This document shows positions 7,350-51,808 of a DNA stretch of 64,000 nt, one piece after another. The notes beneath the pieces were generated by a model. That model saw nothing but the letters and a program-made list of their open reading frames with translations, was not told where the DNA came from and made no database searches. Numbering within the stretch: position 1 is the stretch's first letter; each line of letters starts with the position of its first letter. The DNA comes from a virus. The stretch lies in the IMG/VR virus record IMGVR_UViG_3300032282_001282, positions 22,284 through 86,283 of that record. One strand, 5' to 3'. Made by a program: the position numbers and the translations under genes.

Positions 7350-7946
7350 TTATTTATCTACAGGACCGGCAATAATACTATAAACTTCTTCCCAGTTTTT
7401 AACTGTACGCACACCATCGTGATAGTGATTCATATTATGCCCGTGTTCCATTAACAGAGCATTTAATCCCAAATTTGCACCCAATTCAGCGTTTTGCGGT
7501 TTATCTTCAATCCACCAGCAACCTGTGTCGCGGTATGGGTATAGTGCTTCATCTTTGTCTGCGCCTGTGGCCAAACAAACAACACGTTGGAATACCGTAT
7601 CTCCAAATAGTTTACTTAGATTCATTTCCCTAAGTCGTTGTGCATTTGGGTCTGTGCTTAGGCTAGTAATACAATGGAAAACATACCCATGTTCTTCGTG
7701 TAGCTTTTTAACATAGTGTATGGCATCACGTAACGGAGGCAAGAAACCAATTGCGGCACTTTCGTTAAACATCTTAATTAGACGTTTGCCTTGGTCCTTA
7801 CTAATACCGTACCTTGTGCCAATATCATAGTTAAATTCACCACCGGGTAGTTTTTCAAATCCGTGTGTTTCTAACCAAATATTAAATGCGTACTCCCAAT
7901 TGAGTAACACACCATCTGCATCTACTAATATAACTGATTCTTTCAT
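7350..7946 (-). CDS. HAD-superfamily hydrolase, 5'(3')-deoxyribonucleotidase-like
   Basis: DADGVL motif I; ITS motif II; IEDK motif IV. Confidence 0.75.
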   Translation of the reverse strand: MKESVILVDADGVLLNWEYAFNIWLETHGFEKLPGGEFNYDIGTRYGISKDQGKRLIKMFNESAAIGFLPPLRDAIHYVKKLHEEHGYVFHCITSLSTDPNAQRLREMNLSKLFGDTVFQRVVCLATGADKDEALYPYRDTGCWWIEDKPQNAELGANLGLNALLMEHGHNMNHYHDGVRTVKNWEEVYSIIAGPVDK

Positions 7947-8398
7947 TCTGCTCCTTTTGTTAGTTCACATACTAACATAAAATGATCGTATGCTTGTCTA
8001 ACACTTTCATGTTTCAATAGTTTGTCTGCTTCTGCTTGCATAGCGTGTACACCAGCTTCGGCACAATCACGGATGCTGAGTCCTTGTAGTGTACACAGCT
8101 CGTCACCAAAGGCTTCAGCAAGAGCATGCCAAGCTCGTTTCTGCTCTGGGGTAACAGTCGCCTGTTTTGGGCGTAGTTCACTGGCCTTTTGTATAGCCTT
8201 ACATATAGCATCTTCTGCTATACGGCTAGCGGCTATCATTGGTGCGTAAGCAGGATCGACATTATACCTACGACTAGAACCACCTGGGTATACACTTAGC
8301 AAGTGATGGCCTTTGGGTAATGCGTCCATTAGTTCAGTATCGTACTCATATACTGGAACATATCGACGGCCTTCTTTTTTGTAATACAACTGCTTCAT
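7943..8398 (-). CDS. hypothetical protein
   Basis: ORF translationally coupled to its neighbours. Confidence 0.6.
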   Translation of the reverse strand: MKQLYYKKEGRRYVPVYEYDTELMDALPKGHHLLSVYPGGSSRRYNVDPAYAPMIAASRIAEDAICKAIQKASELRPKQATVTPEQKRAWHALAEAFGDELCTLQGLSIRDCAEAGVHAMQAEADKLLKHESVRQAYDHFMLVCELTKGAE

Positions 8399-9066
8399 AG
8401 TACTTTTACATAATTTAGATTTGTAACACGAGCATTACCGCGGTACTTGTCTTTGTTATGTGCTTTAACTTTACCTTGGATACGGCCTGCTTCAATAATT
8501 TTCTTATTGTCCTTAGCCCAATAAAAAATCAAATCCCCATTGTCGTCATTGCCGTATACTGCATAACAATCCATACTAGGGACATATCGGCTTTCAATAA
8601 TTGAAAAATTTACAACAATTTTTTCGCCAATTTTGCCAACAAAATTACTTTGGTGTTCGTAACGAGCACTTACTTCGCGGATCTGATCTTTTTTCTTTTG
8701 ATCGTGGGCAAGTTTTGGAGCCCATGCAAGTAGCCCAATATCTCGTATGTTGAGATTTTCGTTGCCGAGTATTTCTGCAATTTTATGAAGGAATTGATTT
8801 GAGCTACCCTTGGTCAAGGTTTGCATTATATGTGTCTGTTGCAGGAAAGACACAATGTCTTCGGCTTCAGCACGATGCGAATCTTTAATTTCAAAATTTG
8901 ATGTTTGATTTAGCACACCAAGGATAATTTCTCTGTTGGGTGCTAGTTTTTCTGGGCCGTTGGCATCACGAACAACTTTTTGTTGGTTGTGTTCAAAGGC
9001 GGCAACTGCTACTGCAAGAGCCTGAATAGTAGAAAAATGTTTTTGCTTATTCACAGGCAACTCCAT
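8395..9066 (-). CDS. hypothetical protein with possible C-terminal OB-fold
   Basis: FVGKIGEKI...GKVKAH..YRG..VTNLNYVK; directly downstream of an early promoter. Confidence 0.55.
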   Translation of the reverse strand: MELPVNKQKHFSTIQALAVAVAAFEHNQQKVVRDANGPEKLAPNREIILGVLNQTSNFEIKDSHRAEAEDIVSFLQQTHIMQTLTKGSSNQFLHKIAEILGNENLNIRDIGLLAWAPKLAHDQKKKDQIREVSARYEHQSNFVGKIGEKIVVNFSIIESRYVPSMDCYAVYGNDDNGDLIFYWAKDNKKIIEAGRIQGKVKAHNKDKYRGNARVTNLNYVKVL

Positions 9067-19579: not shown

Positions 19580-22447
19580 TTACTCTAAACCTAAATGACG
19601 TTTAATGTCTTTCAATTCGCGTCTTAATTCTTTGATACCTTCAATTAGTAATGGAGCAAACTTTTCGTAACGTACAGTCAAGTACTGTTCATCAATTGGG
19701 GCAGGTGCTACAATCTCTGGCATCTGACGTAGTGTATCTTGAGCCGACACACCAACTTCGCGTTTAACTTCATAACCTAATGCTTGTGCTGTTTCGTTGG
19801 CTTCATAGTAGAAACCAGTTAACTGATCAATCTTGTCTAGGGCATTATCAATAACACCTAAACGTGTTTTTAATCTGTCGTCTGAGTAGTAAGCAGTAAT
19901 GTTGTTAGTAGCACGTATCTCACCAGTTGTTCCACTGGCCGCTGTACCAACACCTAAACTAGCATGTTGTACACTTGCTGTAGTAGAGATATTTTGTATA
20001 GCAACAGAAGTCAATCCAGTAACTCGACCAAAGGTATCAGTGCTAACAACAGGCACAGCAGTTGTACTACCAGCAGTTGTGACTCCGGGGCCTATAGTAG
20101 TTAATGTAATGTTGCTACCGCTGAGTGTTAGGTTACCTGTGCCAGTTGTAGTACTAATTACACGATTACCATTGTCAAATAATCTTGTAGCACGTAGACC
20201 AATGTTACTGTTCCAGTCGCTATTAGAAGAATTTAATGTTATAGAACCAAATGGTGTTATAAAACCTGCGCCATTGGCAGCATTAAGAGAAACTGCATTG
20301 GCCGCCGCTACATAATATAAATCATTTGTAGTTACAGCAGTTGCATCAACGGTAGTAGTTACACCATTGACCCACAGGCTACCGCCAATATAAACATTGT
20401 TGGTAAAGTATGAACCTGGTGTTGTTACTGTTAAGTTACCAGCAACAACATTATTACCAGTTAAAATACTTGTTCCAGTTAAGGTTGTTGTACCGCTGAC
20501 ACCTAGACCAGTTAGTGTACCGAGGCTAGTAATGAAAGGTTGTGCATTGCTTAGAGTGCCAATAGTACCAGTTAATACTGTTCCGGTATTACCGATAGTC
20601 GGAGCTGTAACACTACTACCGACTAAGAATGGAGCCTGTACGTTTTGTAAAGCAATTAAACTGGTCGTACCAATTTGGTTAGTAATTGTTAAACTACCAA
20701 ATGTTGGTGTTCCAGTATTTCTTAAATCCTGGCCCATGGTAAGGTTGAAAGTACCATTACCAACAGTAGTAACAATACCGTTAGTAGATGTAATTGCCAA
20801 GTTACCACCAACGAATACGTTACCTGTACCGTTAGAACCAACTAAGGTAATTGGACTAACTTGTAGTAACTGAGCTTGTGTAGCACGACCCTTAGAGTCA
20901 AATGTAACTTGTGGTATGTAGGTAGTAGTACCATAGCTTCCGGCAATAATACCAGTAGGAGTAAGATTGAAACCTGTGTTCCAACCACTGACTAAATTAG
21001 ATGTAATCTCAGAAGTGTTAGCGTATGTGACTGTAATGTATGGAACACCGTTGGCAAATCTATGACCGTCGGAATATAAATTAGTAATTACAGCACTAGT
21101 AGCATTAAGGTTACCATTTAATGTTGGTGCACCAATGTTACCGGCTACACTCAATGATGACAATGTACCAAGACTTGTAATCAGTGGTTGTGCTGGTAAT
21201 GCTACTAAACCTTGTAGCGTTCCGTTGAATTGTGTTGCGGCAATGTTGGCAACAGCAACGTTACCTGACGCTGTAAATGTTTGGAATGATACAGTACCAC
21301 CAGTGGCAGTTAAACTATTAACACCGACACTGGTAGCTTGAATACTGTTTGCTGTCAGTGTAGGTAGTACACCGAGGCTGGTAATGTTTGGTTGATCTGG
21401 AGTTTGAATTTGACCCCATAGTGGTCCAACTAAAATACCTGCAGAAATATTTCCAAGTACACTTAGGCCGCCGTCGATACGAACAGCACCAGACCCTAGT
21501 CCAGTACTTTGTGTAACAGATAAGAAACGTGTATCACCAGTGATTAGGCCGCCTTGATAGAAAGTACCAAAGCCAACCATGTCAGTAGTAACAACTACAC
21601 CTGATCCAGAGCCAACAGTAATAAAACCATCAACGTGTACGTTACCGTTGATACTGCCTGATACGTTTAAGTTTTGAATATTAGCACGTTGGCTATTAAT
21701 ATTACCAAAGGCAGTTCCGTAGATAATTGAGTTGCCGGACATGATCAACGCATTGGCTGTTCCGACGTTACTTAAGAATAAACTACCAACGTGTATGTTA
21801 CCATAGACACCACCAGACACAACACTATTAGCTGATATACTTACATCGTAATCGACTACTTTATAAATGAAGTCATTGGTTTGATATTGCAAACCAAAAT
21901 AAGCATAGGCATTTGAACTGTTTTTATTGTACTTGCCCAATACACCAATATCTTTAATATCGCCCGGGGACAAGTTAGCGTGTAGTAATAAAATACCAGC
22001 ATCACTAGAAGCCGCAACCTGTGTGGATGAAATAACTTTACCAGCGTAAATGTTACCAAAGAAGTGTGTTGGGCTACCTAAGTTTTGTACTGAGTTACCC
22101 GATGGAACAATATCAGTATGCGGTACAATATAGTTGTAAAAGTCAGCTTGTCCTGTTGCTACTAGGTTAGCAGTAACATTAACCGTTGGAGCATTTAGAG
22201 TATTGACAAATAAGTTTGATGTAAAAGCACCATTGTTACCAATAGTATTACCAACAACTAGGTTACTTAGTGTACCGTTGTTGGCCTTTATAGAAGGAAA
22301 CTCAACAAGATCGCTACTTAAATATGTGTTAAGTTCTTGAAAGTTTTCGTCAGTGTAAATAAACGCTGTTCTAATTTCATCACCGGTACCATCATTGGGC
22401 GATACGCCAACGTTAATACTTGTAATAGAAGAGTTCCATTTTGCCAT
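19580..22447 (-). CDS. tail fibre protein with C-terminal intramolecular chaperone (peptidase S74-like)
   Basis: N-terminal INVG..PNDGTGD..R.AF; QP.ITSLG.L repeats; C-terminal YSDDRLK...GVSAQ...LLIEGIKEL. Confidence 0.85.
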   Translation of the reverse strand: MAKWNSSITSINVGVSPNDGTGDEIRTAFIYTDENFQELNTYLSSDLVEFPSIKANNGTLSNLVVGNTIGNNGAFTSNLFVNTLNAPTVNVTANLVATGQADFYNYIVPHTDIVPSGNSVQNLGSPTHFFGNIYAGKVISSTQVAASSDAGILLLHANLSPGDIKDIGVLGKYNKNSSNAYAYFGLQYQTNDFIYKVVDYDVSISANSVVSGGVYGNIHVGSLFLSNVGTANALIMSGNSIIYGTAFGNINSQRANIQNLNVSGSINGNVHVDGFITVGSGSGVVVTTDMVGFGTFYQGGLITGDTRFLSVTQSTGLGSGAVRIDGGLSVLGNISAGILVGPLWGQIQTPDQPNITSLGVLPTLTANSIQATSVGVNSLTATGGTVSFQTFTASGNVAVANIAATQFNGTLQGLVALPAQPLITSLGTLSSLSVAGNIGAPTLNGNLNATSAVITNLYSDGHRFANGVPYITVTYANTSEITSNLVSGWNTGFNLTPTGIIAGSYGTTTYIPQVTFDSKGRATQAQLLQVSPITLVGSNGTGNVFVGGNLAITSTNGIVTTVGNGTFNLTMGQDLRNTGTPTFGSLTITNQIGTTSLIALQNVQAPFLVGSSVTAPTIGNTGTVLTGTIGTLSNAQPFITSLGTLTGLGVSGTTTLTGTSILTGNNVVAGNLTVTTPGSYFTNNVYIGGSLWVNGVTTTVDATAVTTNDLYYVAAANAVSLNAANGAGFITPFGSITLNSSNSDWNSNIGLRATRLFDNGNRVISTTTGTGNLTLSGSNITLTTIGPGVTTAGSTTAVPVVSTDTFGRVTGLTSVAIQNISTTASVQHASLGVGTAASGTTGEIRATNNITAYYSDDRLKTRLGVIDNALDKIDQLTGFYYEANETAQALGYEVKREVGVSAQDTLRQMPEIVAPAPIDEQYLTVRYEKFAPLLIEGIKELRRELKDIKRHLGLE

Positions 22448-43824: not shown

Positions 43825-45330
43825 TTATTTGACTAGCGTGTCAAACGGGGTTAATTTGGATTTTTTGTAAGTTTCTATGGCCGCATACACTTCTTTGATT
43901 TTGTTACCAAATAATGTTTTATCAAAAGTTCCATTTATAACATCTTTGATATCGATTCCTAATCCAACTATTTCCGACACTTCCCACATAGCAGTTACAC
44001 CATCATTCCAGTTGTGTATAACTTTGCCAAACTTCTTTCTGTACTGATCTGTTTCTTTGTTTAACTGTTTTGCGATGGCCAATGCTGTATCTACATCCAT
44101 AAATTTGTTTTTCCAGTTTACAATGTCGATGTCTTTTTTAAATGTGCCTTTGTCTACAGTTTCTGCATCTTTTGTAGTGTAGTCCCATTTTTCATAGTTC
44201 TTCTCAAACTCACTTAATCTAGTCATTGCATTTTTACGCAACACCAATCCAAACCATTCCCATTTATCAAATACTTCAAAGTTCTGGTCGATAAACCATT
44301 GCTGGCTATCAAGTATGCTTTTTAATGATTCGCCGGGCAGTCCTACAATCATTCCTGTGTATGTATAGATGTCGCGATTCTTTTTTAGTTGTCTAACAGC
44401 GTCAAGTTGACGTTCAGTATCCATGCCCTTGCCAATGGCTTTTTTAGCCTCAGGATGGAATGATTCTATCCCAAAGGTACCGGCAATAAGTCCTGTGTCG
44501 GCCAACATTGATATTGTTTCAGGATATCTGGCCATTAAGTCTGCACGTAAGAATGCCGAGTAAGTTAGTTGAACTCCGCTTTGTGCAATAGCTTCGGCAA
44601 CGTATTCTAGTTTAACTATGTTGTCGTTAAATGTATCGTCTTGGAATGTGTAGTTAGTGATACCCCACATTTCGTAATTGCGTTTGAATTCATCGGCTAA
44701 ATTTCCTTTGTGTCGTATGTAGTCATTTTTCTTTTTACCAAGCAAAGGAAATTGGCAAAAGGTACATCTAAATATACAGCCACGACTAATTTCAACAGGC
44801 AAGAAGTTAAATTTAATTTGATCTTCGGGCAACCATTTGATTGTTAAATCAGTGTCATCATTCTTGTAAAATTCTTCAGCATTAACTGCCAGGGTTTCTC
44901 TATATGGTACCCATTGTAGGTTGTCTAATCGTTTACCCGTAATGTATTTTAAGTAATGTAATACTGCTTCTTCGGCGTAGCCCCAGATAATTCTATCTAC
45001 TAGAGCTGTATCTAATCCAGCCAGTGCAGATTCGTTACCGCCAATGAGTGTTTGTACTCCGGGATAGGTTTCTTTGACATGTTTGAATAAGGTATTAATT
45101 TTTTCAAAGTCGTACAAGAATGTAATGCTAATGCCAACAAACAAAGTATCTTTTGTGATATACTTTGCACATACTTGTTTTAATTCGTCTATAGAAAAAT
45201 GACTAAAGTAATCAACTACTTCAATGTTGAACCCATGTGGTTCCAAGAATGTCCTAATTCTAGTTGCACCGGCAGGCCTAGTTAAGGTCTTGGTTTTATC
45301 CATGCCAGTGAAGATTATTCCGTGTGTCAT
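43825..45330 (-). CDS. B12-binding-domain radical SAM enzyme (class B-like)
   Basis: N-terminal VGISITF/IGG/GYAE domain; EISRGCIFRCTFC; DDTFND; GIES; IVGLPGE. Confidence 0.85.
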   Translation of the reverse strand: MTHGIIFTGMDKTKTLTRPAGATRIRTFLEPHGFNIEVVDYFSHFSIDELKQVCAKYITKDTLFVGISITFLYDFEKINTLFKHVKETYPGVQTLIGGNESALAGLDTALVDRIIWGYAEEAVLHYLKYITGKRLDNLQWVPYRETLAVNAEEFYKNDDTDLTIKWLPEDQIKFNFLPVEISRGCIFRCTFCQFPLLGKKKNDYIRHKGNLADEFKRNYEMWGITNYTFQDDTFNDNIVKLEYVAEAIAQSGVQLTYSAFLRADLMARYPETISMLADTGLIAGTFGIESFHPEAKKAIGKGMDTERQLDAVRQLKKNRDIYTYTGMIVGLPGESLKSILDSQQWFIDQNFEVFDKWEWFGLVLRKNAMTRLSEFEKNYEKWDYTTKDAETVDKGTFKKDIDIVNWKNKFMDVDTALAIAKQLNKETDQYRKKFGKVIHNWNDGVTAMWEVSEIVGLGIDIKDVINGTFDKTLFGNKIKEVYAAIETYKKSKLTPFDTLVK

Positions 45331-46103
45331 TTGTTCTTATTAATGTAACGCTGTTTTAGTGCTTCAAAAAACTCACGATCATCATCAGTTAATTCAACTG
45401 CATCAATTTGTTCACGTTGATATCTAACAAAATTTTGTAGTGCTTCAAAGTCGCCTTCATACTTAAAGTTGTTGGTAATCTTTTTAGTATCGTAAACGTC
45501 CATGATAATATGATAACGATCTTCATCTGAGTCATTGCGAATTTGGTGCCATAGGTTAGTCCAAATAATGTATGGACGACCATCGGCTTCCATGTACAGA
45601 CGATCCCCATCACAGATGTGTACGCATTGGTCGTTAGTCCACAATGGAATATGTAGTCTAGCCATATACTCAGTTGTGTCTGCGTCTTTGTGTACTAGGC
45701 TTTTACAATGTGCTTGTAAGCAGGTAATCCTGGCACGTCTAGGATAAAAACCCAACTCCATTAAATGATCAATTATTTTTTTAATTTCGCCTACATAGGC
45801 CTGTGTGGGCTTGTCGTGTTCTAAACTGTGGGAAATATTAAAATGTTTAAAGGACTTGTATATTAGTTCTGTTGTAGGTAAAAATGATTCAAGTGACGTA
45901 CCGGCTTCTGTTTGTATTGCTTCCCAACCATCTTGCCAGTCTGCACTACGGCTTAACAAACTCCACCCGCCAAATCCGTGATACTGTGGTGTTTCAAATT
46001 CTTCGCCTTGGATTACTTGGTTGCCCAATGTAAATACACTTTCGCGAACTTCTTTGCGAAGTTTATCAATATCAAATTGAACGTCTAATTTTTCGTACCA
46101 CAT
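45327..46103 (-). CDS. Asp/Asn beta-hydroxylase-like 2OG-Fe(II) oxygenase
   Basis: RARIT.L; HKD; RLHIPL.TN; H...N.S.EDRYHII.D. Confidence 0.8.
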   Translation of the reverse strand: MWYEKLDVQFDIDKLRKEVRESVFTLGNQVIQGEEFETPQYHGFGGWSLLSRSADWQDGWEAIQTEAGTSLESFLPTTELIYKSFKHFNISHSLEHDKPTQAYVGEIKKIIDHLMELGFYPRRARITCLQAHCKSLVHKDADTTEYMARLHIPLWTNDQCVHICDGDRLYMEADGRPYIIWTNLWHQIRNDSDEDRYHIIMDVYDTKKITNNFKYEGDFEALQNFVRYQREQIDAVELTDDDREFFEALKQRYINKNK

Positions 46104-46111
46104 ATTATTCC

Positions 46112-46687
46112 TTAAATGTTATTTGTTTCTTTGAGCATTTGGTATACATCATTATATGTATACTTTTTTGTTCTGAGAGCTATAGCTTTTCTAACAGCAA
46201 ATTCTTCTACCGGGATCACGTTGTGTATTTGCGATACATCTAGTAACCAAGCCTCGCCTTCTTCGGCAATAAAACTATCTATTTCTTCTACATCATCTAA
46301 ATCGTATACGGCTTTTACATAAGCAACTTCTTGGTCTTCTTCAAGACGACTTTTAGGACGGGTAATTACATTTTCTAATTGATGATAAGTTGAATTGTCT
46401 TTGGCACGATAAAATACCGTGCGACACTTTGTAGTCTTAATGTAAAAATTAATTGTAGTTACTAAATCATTATCAACGTGCGGTAACAGTACAGAATTAA
46501 TAGTCATCAGCGTTAGATAAAAATCATCTTTATACTGTTTAGGTACCACAGAATAAATTGCGTCTATGTCCGGGCTCCAAATTTTATTATGATATACACC
46601 CTTACCGTCTAGGCCAGCAAAAGACTCTAGTCCACTGATGTTAGTGTACAAAGGTGTTTCAAATCGATTTGTTAAGCGAGCAAACAT
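46112..46687 (-). CDS. 2OG-Fe(II) oxygenase-like protein
   Basis: LPHVD; TINFY; LDVSQIHNV; RKAI; paralog of 47330..47860. Confidence 0.7.
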   Translation of the reverse strand: MFARLTNRFETPLYTNISGLESFAGLDGKGVYHNKIWSPDIDAIYSVVPKQYKDDFYLTLMTINSVLLPHVDNDLVTTINFYIKTTKCRTVFYRAKDNSTYHQLENVITRPKSRLEEDQEVAYVKAVYDLDDVEEIDSFIAEEGEAWLLDVSQIHNVIPVEEFAVRKAIALRTKKYTYNDVYQMLKETNNI

Positions 46688-47340
46688 AGCGTCTTATAAT
46701 TAAAATAGTCAGACCCAGATTCAATTATTTGTCTTAGTCTCGGAATGTCTATTTGTTCAATCTTATTAGTATAACCTATTTCGACAGAATATGCAATCAT
46801 ATCTTCGGATAGTTTTTCCAATAGCTGTGTTTGGTTATAGAACTGTGAGTATCCACGCCCTACACAAGCAAGTACATTAACTGCATCCGATTTTAATTCA
46901 AAATTGTTAACGTCTACAATCTCTACAATGTTCATTGGCTTTGCAATACCCAACGCTTCATAACATAATTCTCCCGAAGACTTAGTGTCAATTACTGGAT
47001 ATCGTTTTGTTAATTTTTTACAAACGCTGTCAAAATAATAAGGACTGCCTGGTGCTAGATACGCATACTTAGAATCTCGGGGTAGTGATTTAATAACATC
47101 AATGACCTTCTTGGCAACACTAAATCCATCGATCCTTTTGTTATTTTCTACCCAGGCATTTAATGTAATTATCTTGTGTCCACGTTCTTTAATATACCGA
47201 TAACCGTAATAGTCGGGATAAGATGCCGATGCTACAACACAAGTAATCTTTTGATCAAAGAATGTATAAAACTCTTTGGTAGCAGATTCTTGAGTAATCG
47301 GCACACCCACGACAGTAATGTCGCGAGACTTAAACCACAT
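46672..47340 (-). CDS. tetrapyrrole-methylase-fold (class III) SAM methyltransferase-like protein
   Basis: ITVVG; AYLAPGSPYYFDS (G.P motif); SS.E.CY..LGI, resembling PG.S..D....LGID. Confidence 0.5.
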   Translation of the reverse strand: MWFKSRDITVVGVPITQESATKEFYTFFDQKITCVVASASYPDYYGYRYIKERGHKIITLNAWVENNKRIDGFSVAKKVIDVIKSLPRDSKYAYLAPGSPYYFDSVCKKLTKRYPVIDTKSSGELCYEALGIAKPMNIVEIVDVNNFELKSDAVNVLACVGRGYSQFYNQTQLLEKLSEDMIAYSVEIGYTNKIEQIDIPRLRQIIESGSDYFNYKTLCLLA

Positions 47341-47860
47341 TGCCGGTCTCTTTAAGCATTTCAACAACATTGTCATAAGGATGTATAAATGTACCTAAGG
47401 TTACTGCCTTACGCAGACCGATGGTACCTTGTACGCTGTGTATTTTCTTAACGTTCAAGCACCATATTTCAAAGTCCTGTGCTACAAAACTATCTACTTC
47501 TTCAAGCTCATCTTCAAAATAAATGTGACCATCAATTTGATTTTCTATTTGCAAGGTCCTTGGATTATCTACTGTAGGTCGATAAAATACAGTTTTAGCT
47601 CCGCTGGTTTCAATATAAAAATTGATAGTAGTAATAATTTCTGTATCTGTATGTGGAGGTATTGGGCGATTGATAGTCATAACAGTTAAATGAAAATCAG
47701 ACCAATAACGTTTAGGCAATACGCTGTAGAGTTTTTCGGCGTCGGGCGACCATATCTTTTTATAGTCAATGCCTTGGTTGTCAACGCCTGTGAATGTCTT
47801 TAGCCCCTGTGTTACTGTGTACAGTGGTTTTTCAAAGGTGCTGTTAAGACGTACAAACAT
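47330..47860 (-). CDS. 2OG-Fe(II) oxygenase-like protein
   Basis: IPPHTD; TINFY; LNVKKIHSV; RKAV. Confidence 0.7.
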   Translation of the reverse strand: MFVRLNSTFEKPLYTVTQGLKTFTGVDNQGIDYKKIWSPDAEKLYSVLPKRYWSDFHLTVMTINRPIPPHTDTEIITTINFYIETSGAKTVFYRPTVDNPRTLQIENQIDGHIYFEDELEEVDSFVAQDFEIWCLNVKKIHSVQGTIGLRKAVTLGTFIHPYDNVVEMLKETGNVV

Positions 47861-48546
47861 TATTTCCACTCTTTAATTTTGCTCATGCGTCCAGCCCAGG
47901 ACTTTAGAATTACAGTATTTTCATAGTTAGGATCAACTACCTTACGTAAATCTGTGCTTAGGCTAATGCGTAGGTCCGAGGATTTGTTTTGGTCTACGCC
48001 GTGTAGTACATAGCTAGGGAAAAATATTAGTCTACCTTCTACTGGTTTAAATCTACGCTCACGCACATAGGGACTGCCACTAACAGTATTGCGATCCCAA
48101 TTGATTGCTCCTGCTGTGTCATAGCATACTAAATCGCCACAGCCTTCTTTTGCTTGGATATAGTATGTAGCCGCAATGGCAGATTCTGTGTGTCCGTGTA
48201 CTTCCAATGATTCACCGGGCTCACGCACATTAACCCAGCCCATAAAATGCTCGCACCCTTTGAGGTTAAGCAACCTAATCTCGGGTACTTCTCTAGTGAT
48301 TGTTTTAGTAACAATATCAACGATTTCTTGTTTAAGTATGTCTAAGTTAGGACGACTATAATCCCAAATACTATCACCGGGCTTACGGTCAAGGCCCAAT
48401 ACAATGTCTTTGCCTATACTGTATATTTCGTCAAGCAAGGCAGTATTGAACTCTTCATCAAATCGTGTTTGTACTTCCCATATTGGGCTTTTCCAAAATA
48501 AGTTTTGTGCGTTTTGATACCAGTGGTATCTTTCTTTATCGTCCAT
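47860..48546 (-). CDS. putative 2OG-Fe(II) oxygenase (TIGR02466-like)
   Basis: WVNV; H.H; YY; P.EG.LIFFPSY.LH.V..N.S...RISLS. Confidence 0.8.
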   Translation of the reverse strand: MDDKERYHWYQNAQNLFWKSPIWEVQTRFDEEFNTALLDEIYSIGKDIVLGLDRKPGDSIWDYSRPNLDILKQEIVDIVTKTITREVPEIRLLNLKGCEHFMGWVNVREPGESLEVHGHTESAIAATYYIQAKEGCGDLVCYDTAGAINWDRNTVSGSPYVRERRFKPVEGRLIFFPSYVLHGVDQNKSSDLRISLSTDLRKVVDPNYENTVILKSWAGRMSKIKEWK

Positions 48547-48547
48547 A

Positions 48548-49150
48548 CTATCTGTCCACTATTAAATTTAATTGTTTAAATTTGTCTACTACTGTTTCCC
48601 ATTTAGGCATATCAGGCAAGCGTGGGCCTAACCATGCTCGTACACTAATTGCCCAACGACCTTCACTACCACATTCAATGGCGTGTGGTTTGTCTGTACG
48701 ACACAATACCATTCCCGAGTTTATTTGTTTTCTATCTATTTCAACTAGCTGTCTAGTATCCCACTCGCGATAGCCGTAGTCGTTAAGGTCGGGATGATAT
48801 TCATCAACATCTTTGCCGGGATCATCATACCATGTCATGTAGGATGTTGTATTATTAAATGTCCAGTTCATTGCCCACGTTGTAGTACCAATGGAATCTA
48901 TATCCCAATGGGCTCTGTTGGATTTTAAATACGGTGCTTTGTAAAACAACATGATCAACCCTTTGAGATAAATTCCTTTATCTTCAAATTGGTCAATCCA
49001 CTCTTGTTTGAAAATTTGGTCGGCTGAATAACGCCAACTCTTTTGAACTAACGGTTCTGGGGGAAATTTAAAATCGTCAAGTAATGCGTGTTCTGAGTTA
49101 GCATTAATATCGTACCAGGAGTAATTTAATTCCCTTGTTGACTTTTCCAT
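48548..49150 (-). CDS. 2OG-Fe(II) oxygenase-like protein
   Basis: AHWD; AMNW; RTDKPHAI; RWAISVR. Confidence 0.65.
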   Translation of the reverse strand: MEKSTRELNYSWYDINANSEHALLDDFKFPPEPLVQKSWRYSADQIFKQEWIDQFEDKGIYLKGLIMLFYKAPYLKSNRAHWDIDSIGTTTWAMNWTFNNTTSYMTWYDDPGKDVDEYHPDLNDYGYREWDTRQLVEIDRKQINSGMVLCRTDKPHAIECGSEGRWAISVRAWLGPRLPDMPKWETVVDKFKQLNLIVDR

Positions 49151-49461
49151 TCATTGTATTGTTGTAATAGAGCATTTGACTCTGTATCTTTTTCAACCCA
49201 AGGTAAACCATCATCTTGTCCCTCGGATGCAGATTTAAGCAATGCAGTCTGCCCAAGCAACATACGTGCTTCAGGCGGAATAATTGCTTCAACAATATCA
49301 TGATATTCAGTCATCATTTGAAAGTATCTGGCTTTGTCTGTTTCGCTCAAGGCCATAATACGTTGATACATTTGATTGTTGAAAAAGTCGTGCAGGTGAT
49401 CTTTGTTGTAAACTACAACTTCACCGTTTTCGTTTGTAATTGTAATATTCTCTTCGCTCAT
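49126..49461 (-). CDS. hypothetical protein
   Basis: Coupled to the Cys-rich gene. Confidence 0.55.
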   Translation of the reverse strand: MSEENITITNENGEVVVYNKDHLHDFFNNQMYQRIMALSETDKARYFQMMTEYHDIVEAIIPPEARMLLGQTALLKSASEGQDDGLPWVEKDTESNALLQQYNEWKSQQGN

Positions 49462-50333
49462 GCTGTTACACCTTTAAATTTTAATGTTTCAAATAGTTGA
49501 CCAACAGCAACGATACCTCTGAATGCAACAAATACAGCTACCAATGAAATGCCTTTGATAAACCCGGCTGGCTTAGTACTAGGACCAACTAAACGTTGCC
49601 ATAGTCCAACTGCTTTACAAATAGGTATGCCAGCGGCAGTTAACATTTTACCTGTAATAGATCCTTGGTCAGTTTTGCCCATACTATAGGCCATTTCTTC
49701 TGCCCACGGTGTAGCAATATCCTTGGCCCAAGCAATAGCCCAATCTTTAAGAATTTGTTGACTACGAGATTCTGGCAACCACGGTAAGATATTAGGACCA
49801 CTGCCATCCATCCAGTCAACTACAATTTCAGCCCAAGCACGATATCCGTTGTAGATATCCGGGCGTTCTTTAATTAGTTTAGCACCAAACTCTTGATCAG
49901 CTAAGAAGATTTCAGTTGGTAGTAGTCCAAGACTGTGTAGTTTTGTACAGATAATCTTAGAGCAGTTACAATCGTGTGTAAAGCAATTTACTGTATCGCA
50001 GTTGTAAGTACAAGCACAATTACAGTTTGCCTGTAGCCAGTTTTGAGCATCGCAGTTGGCGCAATTAATCGCTGTACAATTTGCTGTGTTACAGTTACAT
50101 TGGCCGCAGTTACAATTACCGTATGCGCCGTTATTGCCGTTATTGCAATTGCCTTGGTTGTTATTTTTAAAGTATGTTAGGCCGTAGAACGAACCCATGT
50201 TTGGACTTGTAGGTCTGATATTTGACTTAATCAGTCCGTTGAGAAAGTTTAAATCTGCAGAATAGTTTGCGGCCTGTCCAATTTCTTGGTTAACGTCGCT
50301 GACTGCAATTTGTCCAGATGTTTGTAGCGTCAC
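49458..50333 (-). CDS. Asn-Cys-repeat protein with virion-like N-terminus and C-terminal KIICT domain; candidate modification substrate
   Basis: MTLQTSGQIAVSDVNQEIG N-terminus; 15 Cys in residues 63-124; KIICTKL...ADQEFG...YNGY..WA domain; hydrophobic tail. Confidence 0.7.
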   Translation of the reverse strand: MTLQTSGQIAVSDVNQEIGQAANYSADLNFLNGLIKSNIRPTSPNMGSFYGLTYFKNNNQGNCNNGNNGAYGNCNCGQCNCNTANCTAINCANCDAQNWLQANCNCACTYNCDTVNCFTHDCNCSKIICTKLHSLGLLPTEIFLADQEFGAKLIKERPDIYNGYRAWAEIVVDWMDGSGPNILPWLPESRSQQILKDWAIAWAKDIATPWAEEMAYSMGKTDQGSITGKMLTAAGIPICKAVGLWQRLVGPSTKPAGFIKGISLVAVFVAFRGIVAVGQLFETLKFKGVTA

Positions 50334-50353: not shown

Positions 50354-51808
50354 TTATGCATCAGCAAGCTGTGATTTACCGTAGACTGTAACCCCGTCAA
50401 TTTCGCCTATTGTTTCGTGTACTACTTTAATTGGAATAATGCGTTTTGTTGGTTCTTCTTTGTGTTCAAAAATAGTACCAAATATGTCTTGACGATCTAT
50501 GGGCAATGTATCGCTCTTAATTAATGTAGGGATATAACCCCCAGTAACTTCAGCAATAGCTAAAGCAAACATGGCCACGTTGTCGGAGTAGGCATTGGCA
50601 CAACTGATATCCCAGAACTTTTTGTCCAGGAACATACAAGCACCTTTACATAAATGTAGCACAGGACACTCAGGGCATTCTTTACGCTTAGACCAATGTG
50701 TTACTGATGTAAGTTTAACTTCATCAAATTTATCTAGTGTACCGCCTAGGTGTGGCTCACCATTCTTAGACATTTCTAACGCACTTACGTTTTGGCAAGT
50801 TAATACATTGCCTCGCAAGTCTACAGCAATGGTATTCTCATCATCCATACCGCATTTTTGTCCTACAAATTTAGCATCAACACGGTTCAGTAAGTTCTGT
50901 GCAAAGCCACCAATCTTTTGAATTTGGCCTAGGAAACCAATCTTACCATCTGTAGTCCAGATGTCGGCAAATGCTTGACGTCTAAATTCAAAGTGATCTT
51001 GTTTAGTTATTAAGCTGTTAACAATACCTTCTTCGTCATAGGCATCGACAATACCGCCTTCGCCTAACTGTACATTTTCATCACCAGTTAGATCAACAAA
51101 CCAATCGTAAATTTCTTTGCGTGATCTGTTCTTGCTGTTAAGCATAGCATTGAAACTAAATCCTTGTTTCAATCGGGTCATCATACGATAAAACCCAAGT
51201 ATACGTTCTTTTTGTTCTGGATCATCAAAAGGATCTGGTCCTCGCACACTTTGTCCCGGACCGTCATGACTAATAGCAACAGTGAAGTTATACTGCATTA
51301 ACCAATCAATCATTTCGTCTGTTAGAATTGATCCGTTGGTAATAACACTAAACCTAGGTTTTGTTTTCCAGTGGCTAAATTTTTTATAAATTGTTTCAGC
51401 CAGTGGCTTCATTGTTTTCCAATAAACAAATGGCTCGCCGCCACAGAACTCTACCTTGAGTCCTCGCTGTTCATCGAAGTTTAAATTTTCTAGTTTTTGC
51501 ATGAAAGCATCAATGTCTTTCATGTTAGTTTCTGGTGCCCGCTCAACAAACTTTTGTGAGCAATAGTCACAAGAATAGTTACAGCTCAAACCCATTTGGA
51601 TTTTAAGATGTGTAATGTCTCGAGATTTTAACATCGGTGTGTCGATGTCAAATGATGTATATGGTGTGAATGAGTCGGTTAAATTTTTATCGGCGTTGCC
51701 AAATTCAAATACAGTACCATCGCTTGTGGTTAATGTATTAGACATATTGTCGTAGTAAAAGACAGCTTTATCCGTGGAGCTTTTTTCTCCGTGTATTTCA
51801 AAAATCAT
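50354..51808 (-). CDS. radical SAM/SPASM-domain enzyme
   Basis: CNYSCDYC; GGEP; ITNGS; ISHDGP; CG...VDLRGNVLTC; CPECPVLHLCKGAC...C. Confidence 0.9.
   Translation of the reverse strand: MIFEIHGEKSSTDKAVFYYDNMSNTLTTSDGTVFEFGNADKNLTDSFTPYTSFDIDTPMLKSRDITHLKIQMGLSCNYSCDYCSQKFVERAPETNMKDIDAFMQKLENLNFDEQRGLKVEFCGGEPFVYWKTMKPLAETIYKKFSHWKTKPRFSVITNGSILTDEMIDWLMQYNFTVAISHDGPGQSVRGPDPFDDPEQKERILGFYRMMTRLKQGFSFNAMLNSKNRSRKEIYDWFVDLTGDENVQLGEGGIVDAYDEEGIVNSLITKQDHFEFRRQAFADIWTTDGKIGFLGQIQKIGGFAQNLLNRVDAKFVGQKCGMDDENTIAVDLRGNVLTCQNVSALEMSKNGEPHLGGTLDKFDEVKLTSVTHWSKRKECPECPVLHLCKGACMFLDKKFWDISCANAYSDNVAMFALAIAEVTGGYIPTLIKSDTLPIDRQDIFGTIFEHKEEPTKRIIPIKVVHETIGEIDGVTVYGKSQLADA

What the first reader, a model, noticed from the sequence alone, without database searches (positions are those of the whole stretch)
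49458..50333. Tripartite protein: virion-type N-terminus, 12 Asn-Cys dipeptides, KIICT domain
Seen: residues 63-124 (about 49962..50150) hold 15 Cys, 12 of them as Asn-Cys (NCNC, NCANC, NCNCAC). They are followed directly by SKIICTKL and a ~160-aa helical domain ending in a hydrophobic segment. The N-terminus MTLQTSGQIAVSDVNQEIG resembles those I recall from phage tail-tip/adhesin proteins. Inference: a leader/core/follower layout, in which the KIICT domain may be an auto-processing or membrane-sorting module. The Asn richness matches the Asn-hydroxylase-like gene in the same operon.
Basis: partly seen in the sequence, partly recalled or inferred. Interest (0 to 1): 0.75.

Follow-up and report, generated by a model that had tools for sequence, protein, structure and literature searches.

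The report
Phage Asn-Cys ladder protein, enzyme-matured
A large freshwater phage encodes a small fibre-associated-type protein whose asparagine-cysteine "ladder" is always encoded beside a radical-SAM enzyme of the kind that staples cysteines into cross-links, so the phage probably hardens one of its own proteins chemically; here the ladder also carries a swappable helical end-domain of unknown function.

Summary
The ORF at 49458..50333 (-) has 15 Cys in residues 63-124, 12 of them as Asn-Cys (shuffle P about 1e-5). Eight NC pairs are conserved by position in 115 homologues.

The three parts are separable modules:
- Residues 1-125 (N-module plus ladder) also exist as stand-alone 125-160-aa proteins that stop exactly where KIIC begins.
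- The KIIC domain (126-291) is a C-terminal end-module on about 800 clusters of phage fibre, spike and adhesin-like proteins.
- KIIC is nearly always followed by a small partner gene, here 49126..49461.

A radical SAM/SPASM gene flanks 86 of 87 ladder proteins with adequate flanks and 0 of 11 ladder-less KIIC proteins.

In Polynucleobacter and Paraburkholderia prophage-like regions, the stand-alone ladder gene directly follows a gp37-like tail-fibre gene.

Best reading: the ladder is an enzyme-cross-linked (thioether) tip or accessory protein. The chemistry, virion location and KIIC function are inferred. KIIC self-cleavage is untested.

The Asn-hydroxylase link holds only in the KIIC-bearing lineage.

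This scan has noted Asn-Cys ladder plus radical-SAM pairs, and the KIICT module, before on other DNA. I found no paper describing either.

The parts
50354..51808 (-). Radical SAM/SPASM enzyme (484 aa), the presumed maturase of the ladder
   Evidence: Pfam Radical_SAM 1.2e-10. CX3CX2C motif at C76/C80/C83. Seven-Cys SPASM pattern C319...GX4C338, C378X2C381X5C387X3C391, C403. Best NCBIfam hits are peptide or protein thioether maturases, all far below their cut-offs. Closest solved structures are 8vpo, CteB 5wgg and anSME 4k36. A homologue flanks 86/87 ladder genes.
50163..50333 (-). N-module, residues 1-57 (MTLQTSGQIAVSDVNQEIG...FYGLTYF)
   Evidence: pLDDT about 80. Conserved across the family. 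Its profile hits the N-termini of ladder-less phage proteins.
49959..50162 (-). Asn-Cys ladder, residues 58-125: 15 Cys, 12 as Asn-Cys
   Evidence: AlphaFold2 pLDDT <50. Stand-alone homologues end exactly here.
49461..49958 (-). KIIC end-module, residues 126-291: six-helix domain with invariant K126, I127, C129, A145-D146-Q147, and a hydrophobic last helix (residues 259-277 = 49503..49559)
   Evidence: Exhaustive phmmer: 794 cluster representatives, always at the extreme C-terminus, with the match starting at the K of KIIC. pLDDT >90. No Pfam, PHROG, NCBIfam or PDB match. Hydropathy.
49126..49461 (-). Small partner of the KIIC module (111 aa). Its start overlaps the stop of the ladder gene.
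   Evidence: A profile built from 5 small ORFs that follow ladder-less KIIC proteins hits this protein at E 8.5e-8, and more than 30 other partners.
48548..49150 (-). 200-aa protein of unknown function, co-oriented
   Evidence: No family hit. No homologue in any related locus. Probably not a core part.
47860..48546 (-). 2OG-Fe(II) oxygenase (PF13759)
   Evidence: Pfam 3.1e-17, phrog_81 8e-25. Present beside 51/60 KIIC-type ladder genes and, more distantly, 11/17 stand-alone ones.
47330..47869 (-). Cupin/JmjC-like oxygenase (179 aa), with a paralogue at 46112..46687
   Evidence: No sequence-family hit. AlphaFold2 pLDDT 92. Foldseek best matches are the protein hydroxylases NO66, MINA53 and YcfD (E 6e-5 to 1e-3, TM 0.4-0.5). 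Invariant H73-x-D75, H144, R153.
46672..47376 (-). 234-aa protein of unknown function
   Evidence: No family hit. Homologue in only 2 loci.
46112..46687 (-). Second cupin-like oxygenase (191 aa)
   Evidence: 48% identical to the 179-aa paralogue in alignment A5.
45327..46103 (-). Asp/Asn beta-hydroxylase-like protein
   Evidence: PF05118 7e-10. Beside 59/60 KIIC-type ladder genes and 0/17 stand-alone ones.
43825..45330 (-). B12-binding radical SAM enzyme (methyltransferase-like)
   Evidence: Radical_SAM 3.1e-19 plus B12-binding. Best NCBIfam hit is the PhpK family, below cut-off. Present in 16/60 related loci.

Best explanation
The 291-aa protein is a fusion of two independent units.

Unit 1 (residues 1-125) is a conserved 'Asn-Cys ladder protein'. 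It has an N-terminal module of a type that heads several phage fibre-module proteins, followed by about 65 residues with Cys spaced every 2-6 residues, most of them preceded by Asn. The radical SAM/SPASM enzyme encoded 20 nt upstream most likely uses this unit as its substrate. By analogy with NxxcB, PapB, QhpD and CrpC, an auxiliary Fe-S cluster would bind a Cys thiol. The 5'-deoxyadenosyl radical would abstract a hydrogen from an acceptor carbon, and a thioether would form. Asn C-beta is the obvious acceptor, because the core holds only 3 Asp and no Glu. This would turn an otherwise unstructured segment into a rigid knot that resists reduction and proteases. In this lineage the knot may then be hydroxylated or methylated by the co-transcribed 2OG/cupin/AspH-like oxygenases and the B12-radical SAM enzyme. 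Since stand-alone ladder genes sit directly after gp37-like tail-fibre genes, the product is probably a fibre-tip or fibre-accessory protein and not a secreted peptide.

Unit 2 (residues 126-291, with the 111-aa partner gene) is a swappable C-terminal end-module. Aquatic phages attach it after Gly runs, Pro runs, Hint domains or NC repeats at the ends of fibre, spike and adhesin-like proteins. I take it to be a docking, assembly or membrane-tethering module. Its function is not known.

Shown: the modularity, the conservation and the gene linkage. Inferred: the enzyme-substrate relation (strong), thioether chemistry (moderate), virion location (moderate) and the KIIC role (weak).
For: - Family conservation: 644 full-length homologues, with the NC pairs conserved by position.
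- Stand-alone ladders: 103 clusters of 125-160-aa proteins cover residues 1-125 and end at ...NCNC or ...CACACW, some on contigs up to 234 kb.
- KIIC domain: found at the C-terminus of 794 cluster representatives of 100-1859 aa, including DUF4815, Gly_rich_2, He_PIG and Hint-containing proteins.
- Linkage among distinct proteins with adequate flanks (the underlying loci are):
  - ladder + KIIC: 59/60 have the SPASM gene directly upstream (58-74% identity)
  - stand-alone ladder: 17/17 have it directly downstream (41-62% identity)
  - ladder with another C-terminal extension: 10/10
  - KIIC without a ladder: 0/11
- Enzyme features: the radical SAM and full SPASM Cys motifs are present. Nearest families and structures are thioether-forming maturases.
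- Disorder: the ladder has pLDDT <50 while both flanking parts are confident.
- Fibre context: in Polynucleobacter sp. JS-Safj-400b-B2 and Paraburkholderia sp. BCC1886, the ladder gene's start overlaps the stop of a tail-fibre gene whose C-terminus matches 'long tail fiber distal subunit' PHROGs (2.9e-36 and 2.7e-29). The SPASM gene follows.
- Partner gene: the small partner family follows KIIC whatever the passenger.
- Precedents: a Cys-Asn beta-thioether made by NxxcB (PMC9389541) and SPASM-installed thioethers on a large Cys-rich protein, CrpC/CrpA (PMC13692751).
Against: - There is no biochemical or proteomic evidence of any kind.
- The enzyme falls far below the cut-off of every curated maturase family, so its reaction is not predictable.
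- NxxC spacing is not conserved: median 4 per core, range 0-9.
- In this window the cluster is 27 kb from the only recognisable fibre gene and sits among auxiliary genes.
- The loci are phylogenetically related, so the linkage counts overstate independent events. Three gene orders and 41-74% enzyme identity do argue for long-term coupling.
- A Cys-x-Cys-rich segment could simply bind metal.
- The KIIC role rests on context alone.
Confidence: 0.6

Rival explanations
1. The ladder is an unmodified metal-binding segment, either metallothionein-like or an Fe-S scaffold. It would bind Zn, Cu or Fe, for instance to feed the cluster's many Fe-S and Fe(II) enzymes or to stabilise a small knob. The radical SAM neighbour would act on something else.
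For: - CxC and Cx2C spacings are dense.
- AlphaFold2 cannot fold the segment without ligands.
- The cluster is rich in Fe-S and Fe(II) enzymes.
Against: - The Asn before each Cys is conserved as strongly as the Cys itself, which metal ligation does not explain.
- The SPASM gene is adjacent in 86/87 ladder loci in three gene orders, and is the only enzyme common to all of them.
- The segment contains conserved W, Y and F, which is unlike metallothioneins.
Confidence: 0.12
2. It is a true RiPP precursor. The N-module is a leader, the ladder is a core that is excised and released as a bioactive peptide, and KIIC is a follower that cleaves itself off or sorts the precursor to the membrane.
For: - The leader-like N-module is conserved, and CrpA/CrpB likewise share an N-terminal region used for enzyme engagement.
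- The domain starts with an invariant Cys after flexible linkers, and some relatives place a Hint domain ending ...VHN right before KIIC.
- The tail is hydrophobic.
Against: - No protease, exporter or immunity gene was recognised.
- The N-module also heads ladder-less 300-400-aa phage proteins.
- The core is conserved, not hypervariable.
- KIIC is absent from more than 100 clusters of ladder proteins. It occurs on 1000-1800-aa structural proteins that are plainly not RiPPs.
- KIIC is all-helical and has no conserved His.
- Stand-alone ladder genes lie inside tail-fibre modules.
Confidence: 0.08
3. The KIIC module plus its partner is mainly a selfish or exchangeable in-frame cassette. It inserts at the ends or break points of phage structural genes. 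Its presence on the ladder protein would then be incidental to ladder function.
For: - In L050, L067 and L072 the cassette sits at poly-Gly break points of Gly-rich domains whose remainder is encoded by the next gene. In L050 it occurs twice in tandem.
- The passengers are highly diverse.
- Ladder proteins exist with KIIC, without it, or with other C-terminal extensions.
Against: - The fusion is stable across at least 83 distinct ladder+KIIC proteins down to about 40% identity, which suggests it is useful there.
- No nuclease or recombinase is associated with it.
Confidence: 0.25

Closest known systems
CrpC/CrpA of Methanococcus voltae (SPASM radical SAM enzyme installing ranthionine thioethers on a large Cys-rich protein; PMC13692751)
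   Same: - A SPASM radical SAM gene sits next to a protein-sized, Cys-rich substrate, not a short peptide.
- There is a conserved N-terminal region and a repetitive Cys region that AlphaFold models poorly.
- Our enzyme hits the CrpC family model TIGR04463 weakly (41 bits).
   Different: - The score is far below the family cut-off of 525 bits.
- The acceptor context differs: C-x-x-Q/D there, Asn-Cys pairs here with almost no acidic residues.
- The system here is phage-encoded, and linked to tail-fibre genes in relatives.
- Extra oxygenases and the KIIC module are present.
NxxcB/NxxcA of streptococci (radical SAM beta-thioether between Cys and an upstream Asn; PMC9389541)
   Same: It is the only characterised radical SAM reaction that joins Cys to Asn. 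Repeated N..C motifs are present: NCNC contains NxxC.
   Different: - The substrate there is a short quorum-regulated peptide.
- NxxC spacing is not conserved in the ladder (0-9 per core).
- No sequence-level membership was shown.
QhpD/QhpC and ranthipeptide/sactipeptide maturases (PapB, CteB/SCIFF)
   Same: - QhpC is a protein subunit that is cross-linked and keeps working as part of a larger assembly.
- PapB, QhpD and SCIFF models are among the best hits, and CteB (5wgg) is the second-closest solved structure.
   Different: - All hits are below the curated cut-offs.
- Those acceptors are Asp, Glu or Thr, but the ladder core has 3 Asp and 0 Glu.
T-even phage gp38 (adhesin or chaperone encoded directly after the distal fibre gene 37); from general knowledge
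   Same: The gene position matches. Stand-alone ladder genes start at the stop codon of a gp37-like distal fibre gene.
   Different: - No sequence or fold similarity was tested or found.
- gp38 is not known to be enzymatically modified.
- In this window the ladder gene is not next to a fibre gene.
C-terminal intramolecular chaperone domains of phage fibres (Peptidase_S74) and Hint/intein modules
   Same: Like KIIC, they are C-terminal modules shared by many fibre proteins, and they are removed by self-cleavage.
   Different: - KIIC has no Pfam hit to these families.
- It is an all-helical bundle with a hydrophobic tail.
- It comes with a separate small partner gene.
- Cleavage is not shown.

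Membership tests
Radical SAM/SPASM peptide or protein maturase system (sacti-/ranthipeptide-like) | Enzyme with a CX3CX2C radical SAM motif | tested here: met
   C76, C80, C83. PF04055 1.2e-10.
Radical SAM/SPASM peptide or protein maturase system (sacti-/ranthipeptide-like) | SPASM seven-Cys motif for two auxiliary [4Fe-4S] clusters | tested here: met
   C319...G333X4C338; C378X2C381X5C387X3C391; C403. Alignments to CcpM, anSME and DynA extend to about residue 390-400. Pfam's own SPASM model gave no hit at E <=0.01.
Radical SAM/SPASM peptide or protein maturase system (sacti-/ranthipeptide-like) | Cys-rich substrate gene adjacent and co-inherited | tested here: met
   86/87 ladder genes against 0/11 ladder-less KIIC genes.
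Radical SAM/SPASM peptide or protein maturase system (sacti-/ranthipeptide-like) | Score above the curated cut-off of a named maturase family (PapB NF047865, SCIFF TIGR03974, CrpC-type TIGR04463, CefB NF038107, QhpD TIGR03906) | tested here: not met
   Best is 78.9 bits against a cut-off of 340 (PapB). TIGR04463 gives 41.4 against 525.
Radical SAM/SPASM peptide or protein maturase system (sacti-/ranthipeptide-like) | Thioether (-2 Da per link) actually formed on the substrate | not testable with these tools
   Needs co-expression and mass spectrometry.
Classical RiPP (leader removed, product exported) | Leader protease and/or exporter in the cluster; short hypervariable core | tested here: not met
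   No such family among the 10 cluster genes. The core is conserved by position.
AspH substrates (EGF-like domains) | Consensus C-x-[DN]-x4-[FY]-x-C-x-C | tested here: not met
   0 of 115 family members. The consensus is quoted from general knowledge.
Hint/intein-type self-processing domain (for KIIC) | All-beta Hint fold with an N-terminal nucleophile and a C-terminal HN | tested here: not met
   KIIC is a six-helix bundle with no Hint Pfam hit. True Hint domains occur upstream of KIIC in other proteins.
Tail-anchored membrane protein (for KIIC) | Single hydrophobic segment at the extreme C-terminus | tested here: inconclusive
   KD mean 2.07 over residues 259-277. It is >=1.6 in 89% of the family but only 58% of 150 diverse representatives. 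The segment contains Arg274, or K/E in relatives.
Virion (tail-fibre-associated) protein | Encoded in a tail-fibre module, or detected in virions | tested here: inconclusive
   Met for stand-alone homologues in two bacterial genomes and for KIIC passengers. Not met for this window's gene, which lies among auxiliary genes. No proteomics.

The most novel reading that the evidence does not exclude
Many aquatic and soil phages enzymatically cross-link a dedicated Asn-Cys ladder protein that caps or accompanies the host-binding tail fibre, and in one lineage also hydroxylate or methylate it. This would be a post-translational 'hardening' of a virion part by RiPP-type radical chemistry, with a Cys-to-Asn linkage pattern not seen before. 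Separately, the KIIC domain and its partner would form an undescribed exchangeable end-cassette that caps or splits phage structural genes.
Probability: 0.4. Interest if true: 0.85.

Novelty: new variant of a known kind. Interest (0 to 1): 0.66.

Why it matters
Radical SAM/SPASM cross-linking is known for small secreted peptides and for very few proteins (QhpC, and CrpA in 2026). If phages use it on one of their own fibre-associated proteins, that would be a new class of virion maturation. It would also be a new Cys-Asn-rich substrate type for enzymologists and a possible determinant of adsorption stability or host range.

The system is widespread: hundreds of clusters in freshwater, marine and soil phage sequences. 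It also occurs in prophage-like regions of cultured Polynucleobacter and Paraburkholderia strains, so it can be tested directly.

The KIIC module and its partner form a large phage-specific family with no name in Pfam, PHROGs or NCBIfam. Knowing what it does would help annotate many fibre, spike and baseplate genes that appear truncated or split.

Tried and rejected
- The 291-aa protein has no Pfam, PHROG or NCBIfam hit. A family profile has no PDB sequence hit.
- Foldseek against the PDB found nothing at E <=0.001. The VIA-align wide search put NEL E3-ligase domains on top (SspH1 Z 5.8, SlrP 5.6). That is below what helical bundles reach by chance, so I make no claim from it.
- A word-based search for long proteins sharing residues 1-60 found none. 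tblastn of residues 1-58 against phages gave only E 0.4-4. The link to other N-termini rests on the profile search.
- BLASTP of the 111-aa partner against the gene after the SynMITS9220M01 KIIC protein showed no similarity. So the partner family is not shown for that cyanophage.
- hhalign of the 179-aa family against the PF13759 oxygenase family was not significant (probability 0.3%). The cupin assignment rests on fold and invariant residues.
- The ESM Atlas could not read the window's own sequence. A homologue gave only unnamed viral clusters.
- Sequencing runs: no RNA holder is listed, so nothing can be said about expression.
- The window DNA has no megablast match in the phage collection.
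- Literature searches for phage + radical SAM + tail fibre + Cys-rich found no relevant paper.
- The EGF/AspH consensus and PapB-type Cx3[DE] motifs do not fit the ladder.
- N-glycosylation sequons (NC[ST]) were considered. Only some NC pairs are followed by S/T, and no glycosyltransferase was recognised in the cluster.
Full report
**The object.**
Window 49458..50333 (minus strand) is a 291-codon ORF. It has a GTG start behind an AAGGGG ribosome-binding site, 20 nt after the stop of a 484-aa radical SAM gene. Its stop overlaps the start of a 111-codon ORF. The window is part of an 86-kb IMG/VR virus record judged 24% complete. It contains a T4 gp37-like distal tail-fibre gene at 19580..22447 and a DNA ligase. 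There is no close relative in the phage collection.

**Observation check.**
- Residues 63-124 hold 15 Cys, 12 of them preceded by Asn.
- Against shuffles of the same 69 residues, 12 NC dipeptides are seen where 4.6 are expected (P about 1e-5). The bias is directional.
- The family is large: 644 homologues of similar length.
- In 115 aligned members, eight NC pairs are conserved by position, along with the motifs NCD.Q.WLQ, YNC and NCNCSKIICTKL.
- AlphaFold2 with that alignment gives a moderately confident N-part (residues 1-57, pLDDT about 80). The ladder is unmodelled (pLDDT <50). Residues 128-288 form a very confident six-helix domain.
- The last helix is hydrophobic enough to be a membrane anchor by the Kyte-Doolittle criterion.

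**The three parts are separable.**
*KIIC domain.* An exhaustive HMMER search with residues 125-291 found 794 cluster representatives.
- The domain is always at the extreme C-terminus of proteins of 100-1859 aa, and the match always begins at the K of KIIC.
- The passengers include DUF4815 proteins, Gly_rich_2 proteins, He_PIG Ig-repeat proteins and proteins with an N-terminus resembling the T4 gp5 OB-fold (that resemblance is from my memory). There is also a 616-aa protein next to the 'fiber protein' of Synechococcus phage SynMITS9220M01, where 33 Pro and 8 Arg precede the domain.
- The junction is usually a Gly run (GGGGG|KIIC or GGGGC|KIIC). Sometimes it is NC/AC/DC repeats, and in several proteins it is a Hint domain ending ...VHN.

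*Residues 1-125.* A search for short proteins with residues 1-125 found 103 clusters of 125-160-aa proteins, some on contigs up to 234 kb. They consist of the N-module plus the ladder and stop at ...NCNCNC...CACACW or similar, exactly where KIIC starts here. Ladder proteins with other C-terminal extensions also exist.

*N-module.* A profile of residues 1-57 hits the extreme N-termini of ladder-less 300-400-aa phage proteins. These include the Vibrio phage nt-1 'FG-GAP repeat protein' (E 2e-5) and the gene after the tail fibre of Rhizobium phage Pasto (E 2.5e-3).

**What is linked to what.**
I fetched about 200 related viral loci in three scans and mapped the window's cluster proteins onto them. 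The table counts distinct proteins with at least 1.6 kb upstream and 4.5 kb downstream.

| Protein type | SPASM gene adjacent | Position and identity |
|---|---|---|
| Ladder + KIIC | 59/60 | directly upstream, 58-74% |
| Stand-alone ladder | 17/17 | directly downstream, 41-62% |
| Ladder + other C-terminal extension | 10/10 | upstream or downstream |
| KIIC without ladder | 0/11 | none of the cluster's enzymes present |

- The one exception among ladder + KIIC is probably L036, where a 45%-identical SPASM gene lies 4 kb downstream.
- The invariant pair is therefore ladder plus SPASM enzyme.
- The AspH-like gene and the cupin genes go with the KIIC-bearing lineage only (59/60 and 58/60, against 0/17 for stand-alone ladders). 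PF13759-type oxygenases accompany both forms.
- The loci are related, so these are not independent counts. Even so, three gene orders and the wide identity range indicate an old and maintained coupling.

**The enzymes.**
- The upstream enzyme has the CX3CX2C motif and a full seven-Cys SPASM pattern.
- Its best NCBIfam hits are the PapB, geopeptide, nif11, QhpD, HxsB, CcpM, anSME, DynA, SCIFF and CefB maturases, and TIGR04463. All are far below cut-off.
- The closest solved structures are 8vpo, CteB (5wgg) and anSME.
- The 179-aa and 191-aa genes have no sequence-family hit. The 179-aa gene folds (pLDDT 92) as a cupin whose best matches are the protein hydroxylases NO66, MINA53 and YcfD. H-x-D, H and R are invariant.
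- With PF13759, PF05118 (AspH-like) and a B12-radical SAM enzyme, the operon looks like a protein-tailoring set.

**Fibre context.**
A scan of bacterial genomes found stand-alone ladder genes in Polynucleobacter sp. JS-Safj-400b-B2 and Paraburkholderia sp. BCC1886.
- In both, the ladder gene's start overlaps the stop of a tail-fibre gene whose C-terminus matches 'long tail fiber distal subunit' PHROGs. The SPASM gene comes next.
- In Polynucleobacter the neighbours are lambda-like K, I and J tail-tip genes and an endolysin.
- This is the slot that gp38 occupies in T-even phages (general knowledge).

**The KIIC partner.**
In nearly every locus the gene after a KIIC protein is a small ORF with overlapping or abutting start.
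- A profile of five such ORFs taken from ladder-less KIIC proteins recognises the window's 111-aa protein (E 8.5e-8) and more than 30 others.
- In L050, L067 and L072 the KIIC-plus-partner pair sits at poly-Gly break points of Gly-rich domains whose remainder is the next gene. In L050 this happens twice in tandem.

**Mechanism.**
*Shown:* the modular architecture, the conservation and the gene linkage.

*Inferred:* the SPASM enzyme modifies the ladder. The most likely reaction is Cys thioether formation. Precedents are the Cys-Asn beta-thioether of NxxcB (PMC9389541) and thioethers on the large protein CrpA by CrpC (PMC13692751). Asn is the plausible acceptor because the core has 21 Asn, 3 Asp and no Glu. 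However, NxxC spacing is not conserved. The product is probably a rigid knob on or near a fibre tip. The KIIC role (docking, assembly, membrane tether or selfish cassette) is open.

**Comparison and novelty.**
The system works like a radical SAM/SPASM protein-cross-linking system (QhpD/QhpC, CrpC/CrpA), but the enzyme is not a member of any curated family. The substrate type (Asn-Cys ladder), the phage and fibre setting and the KIIC fusion are not described in any paper I could search.

Earlier notes of this scan report the same pairing of Asn-Cys tails with radical SAM enzymes, and the KIICT module, in other genomes. I treated those as leads. I re-derived the key points here and took from them the CrpC paper and the 'split gene' idea.

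**Verdict.**
This is a new variant of a known kind, of fairly high interest, and directly testable in cultured hosts.

Noticed in passing
window 19580-22447 (-): A 955-aa ORF whose C-terminal part matches T4-type 'long tail fiber distal subunit' PHROGs (2.5e-23). This is the same kind of fibre end that precedes stand-alone ladder genes in bacterial prophages. Here it is 27 kb from the ladder cluster and followed by a 1294-aa ORF with no family hit.
   Followed up: partly
L036 9707-11360 and 14734-16071: Three paralogues share a different N-terminus (MT.Y..G....F.DGS...SA...WSQ.SG). One ends ...NCNCNCNCG followed by KIIC and a partner ORF. The other two (101 and 98 aa) end in NCNCNCNCNC with no KIIC. 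A 45%-identical SPASM gene lies a few kb downstream.
   Followed up: partly
L050 8033-11773; L067 10001-11592; L072 9548-11148: KIIC plus its partner ORF sits at poly-Gly break points of Gly-rich fibre domains whose continuation is the next gene. In L050 the cassette occurs twice in tandem. It looks like an in-frame cassette that splits genes.
   Followed up: partly
P0148, P0199, P0200, P0190, P0265 (metagenomic proteins): A Hint-like domain ending ...IVEGFIVHN sits immediately before KIIC. The +1 residue is mostly Lys, so C-terminal cleavage without splicing would release the KIIC module.
   Followed up: partly
L148-L151 about 7536-8687; P0147, P0149: 383-392-aa proteins start MFLGR(D/E)GF.WW.GVVE..DPL, which I recall as the T4 gp5 OB-fold N-terminus (from memory, not tested). 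They carry a poly-Pro/Arg linker and a KIIC domain, which would make it an end-module on a central-spike-like protein.
   Followed up: no
P0237, P0254, P0255, P0262, P0263, P0268: Distant KIIC-like domains (KVICAELHRQGL) occur on proteins with lipoprotein-type signal peptides and InlB B-repeats. So a cellular, exported version of the module may exist.
   Followed up: no
L001 6669-8519 (Synechococcus phage SynMITS9220M01, QJT70041): A 616-aa protein next to the 'fiber protein' has a Gly-rich region, then 33 consecutive Pro and 8 Arg directly before its KIIC-like domain. The 113-aa gene after it shows no BLASTP similarity to the window's partner protein.
   Followed up: partly
L052 10508-11848: The small-partner-like sequence (MKLTTEQKQELV..., as in L051) is here the N-terminus of a 446-aa protein. 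So the partner can be fused to the downstream gene.
   Followed up: no
L161, L164, L171, L176 and others (stand-alone ladder proteins): Many stand-alone ladder proteins end in a conserved C(A/D)C(F/L/W)(V/I)CACACW tail. The KIIC-bearing form lacks this tail.
   Followed up: no
L217 (Polynucleobacter sp. JS-Safj-400b-B2 contig, coverage 277) and L219 (Paraburkholderia sp. BCC1886, 286-kb contig): Cultured bacteria carry the gene order tail fibre - ladder - SPASM enzyme. These are ready experimental systems.
   Followed up: partly
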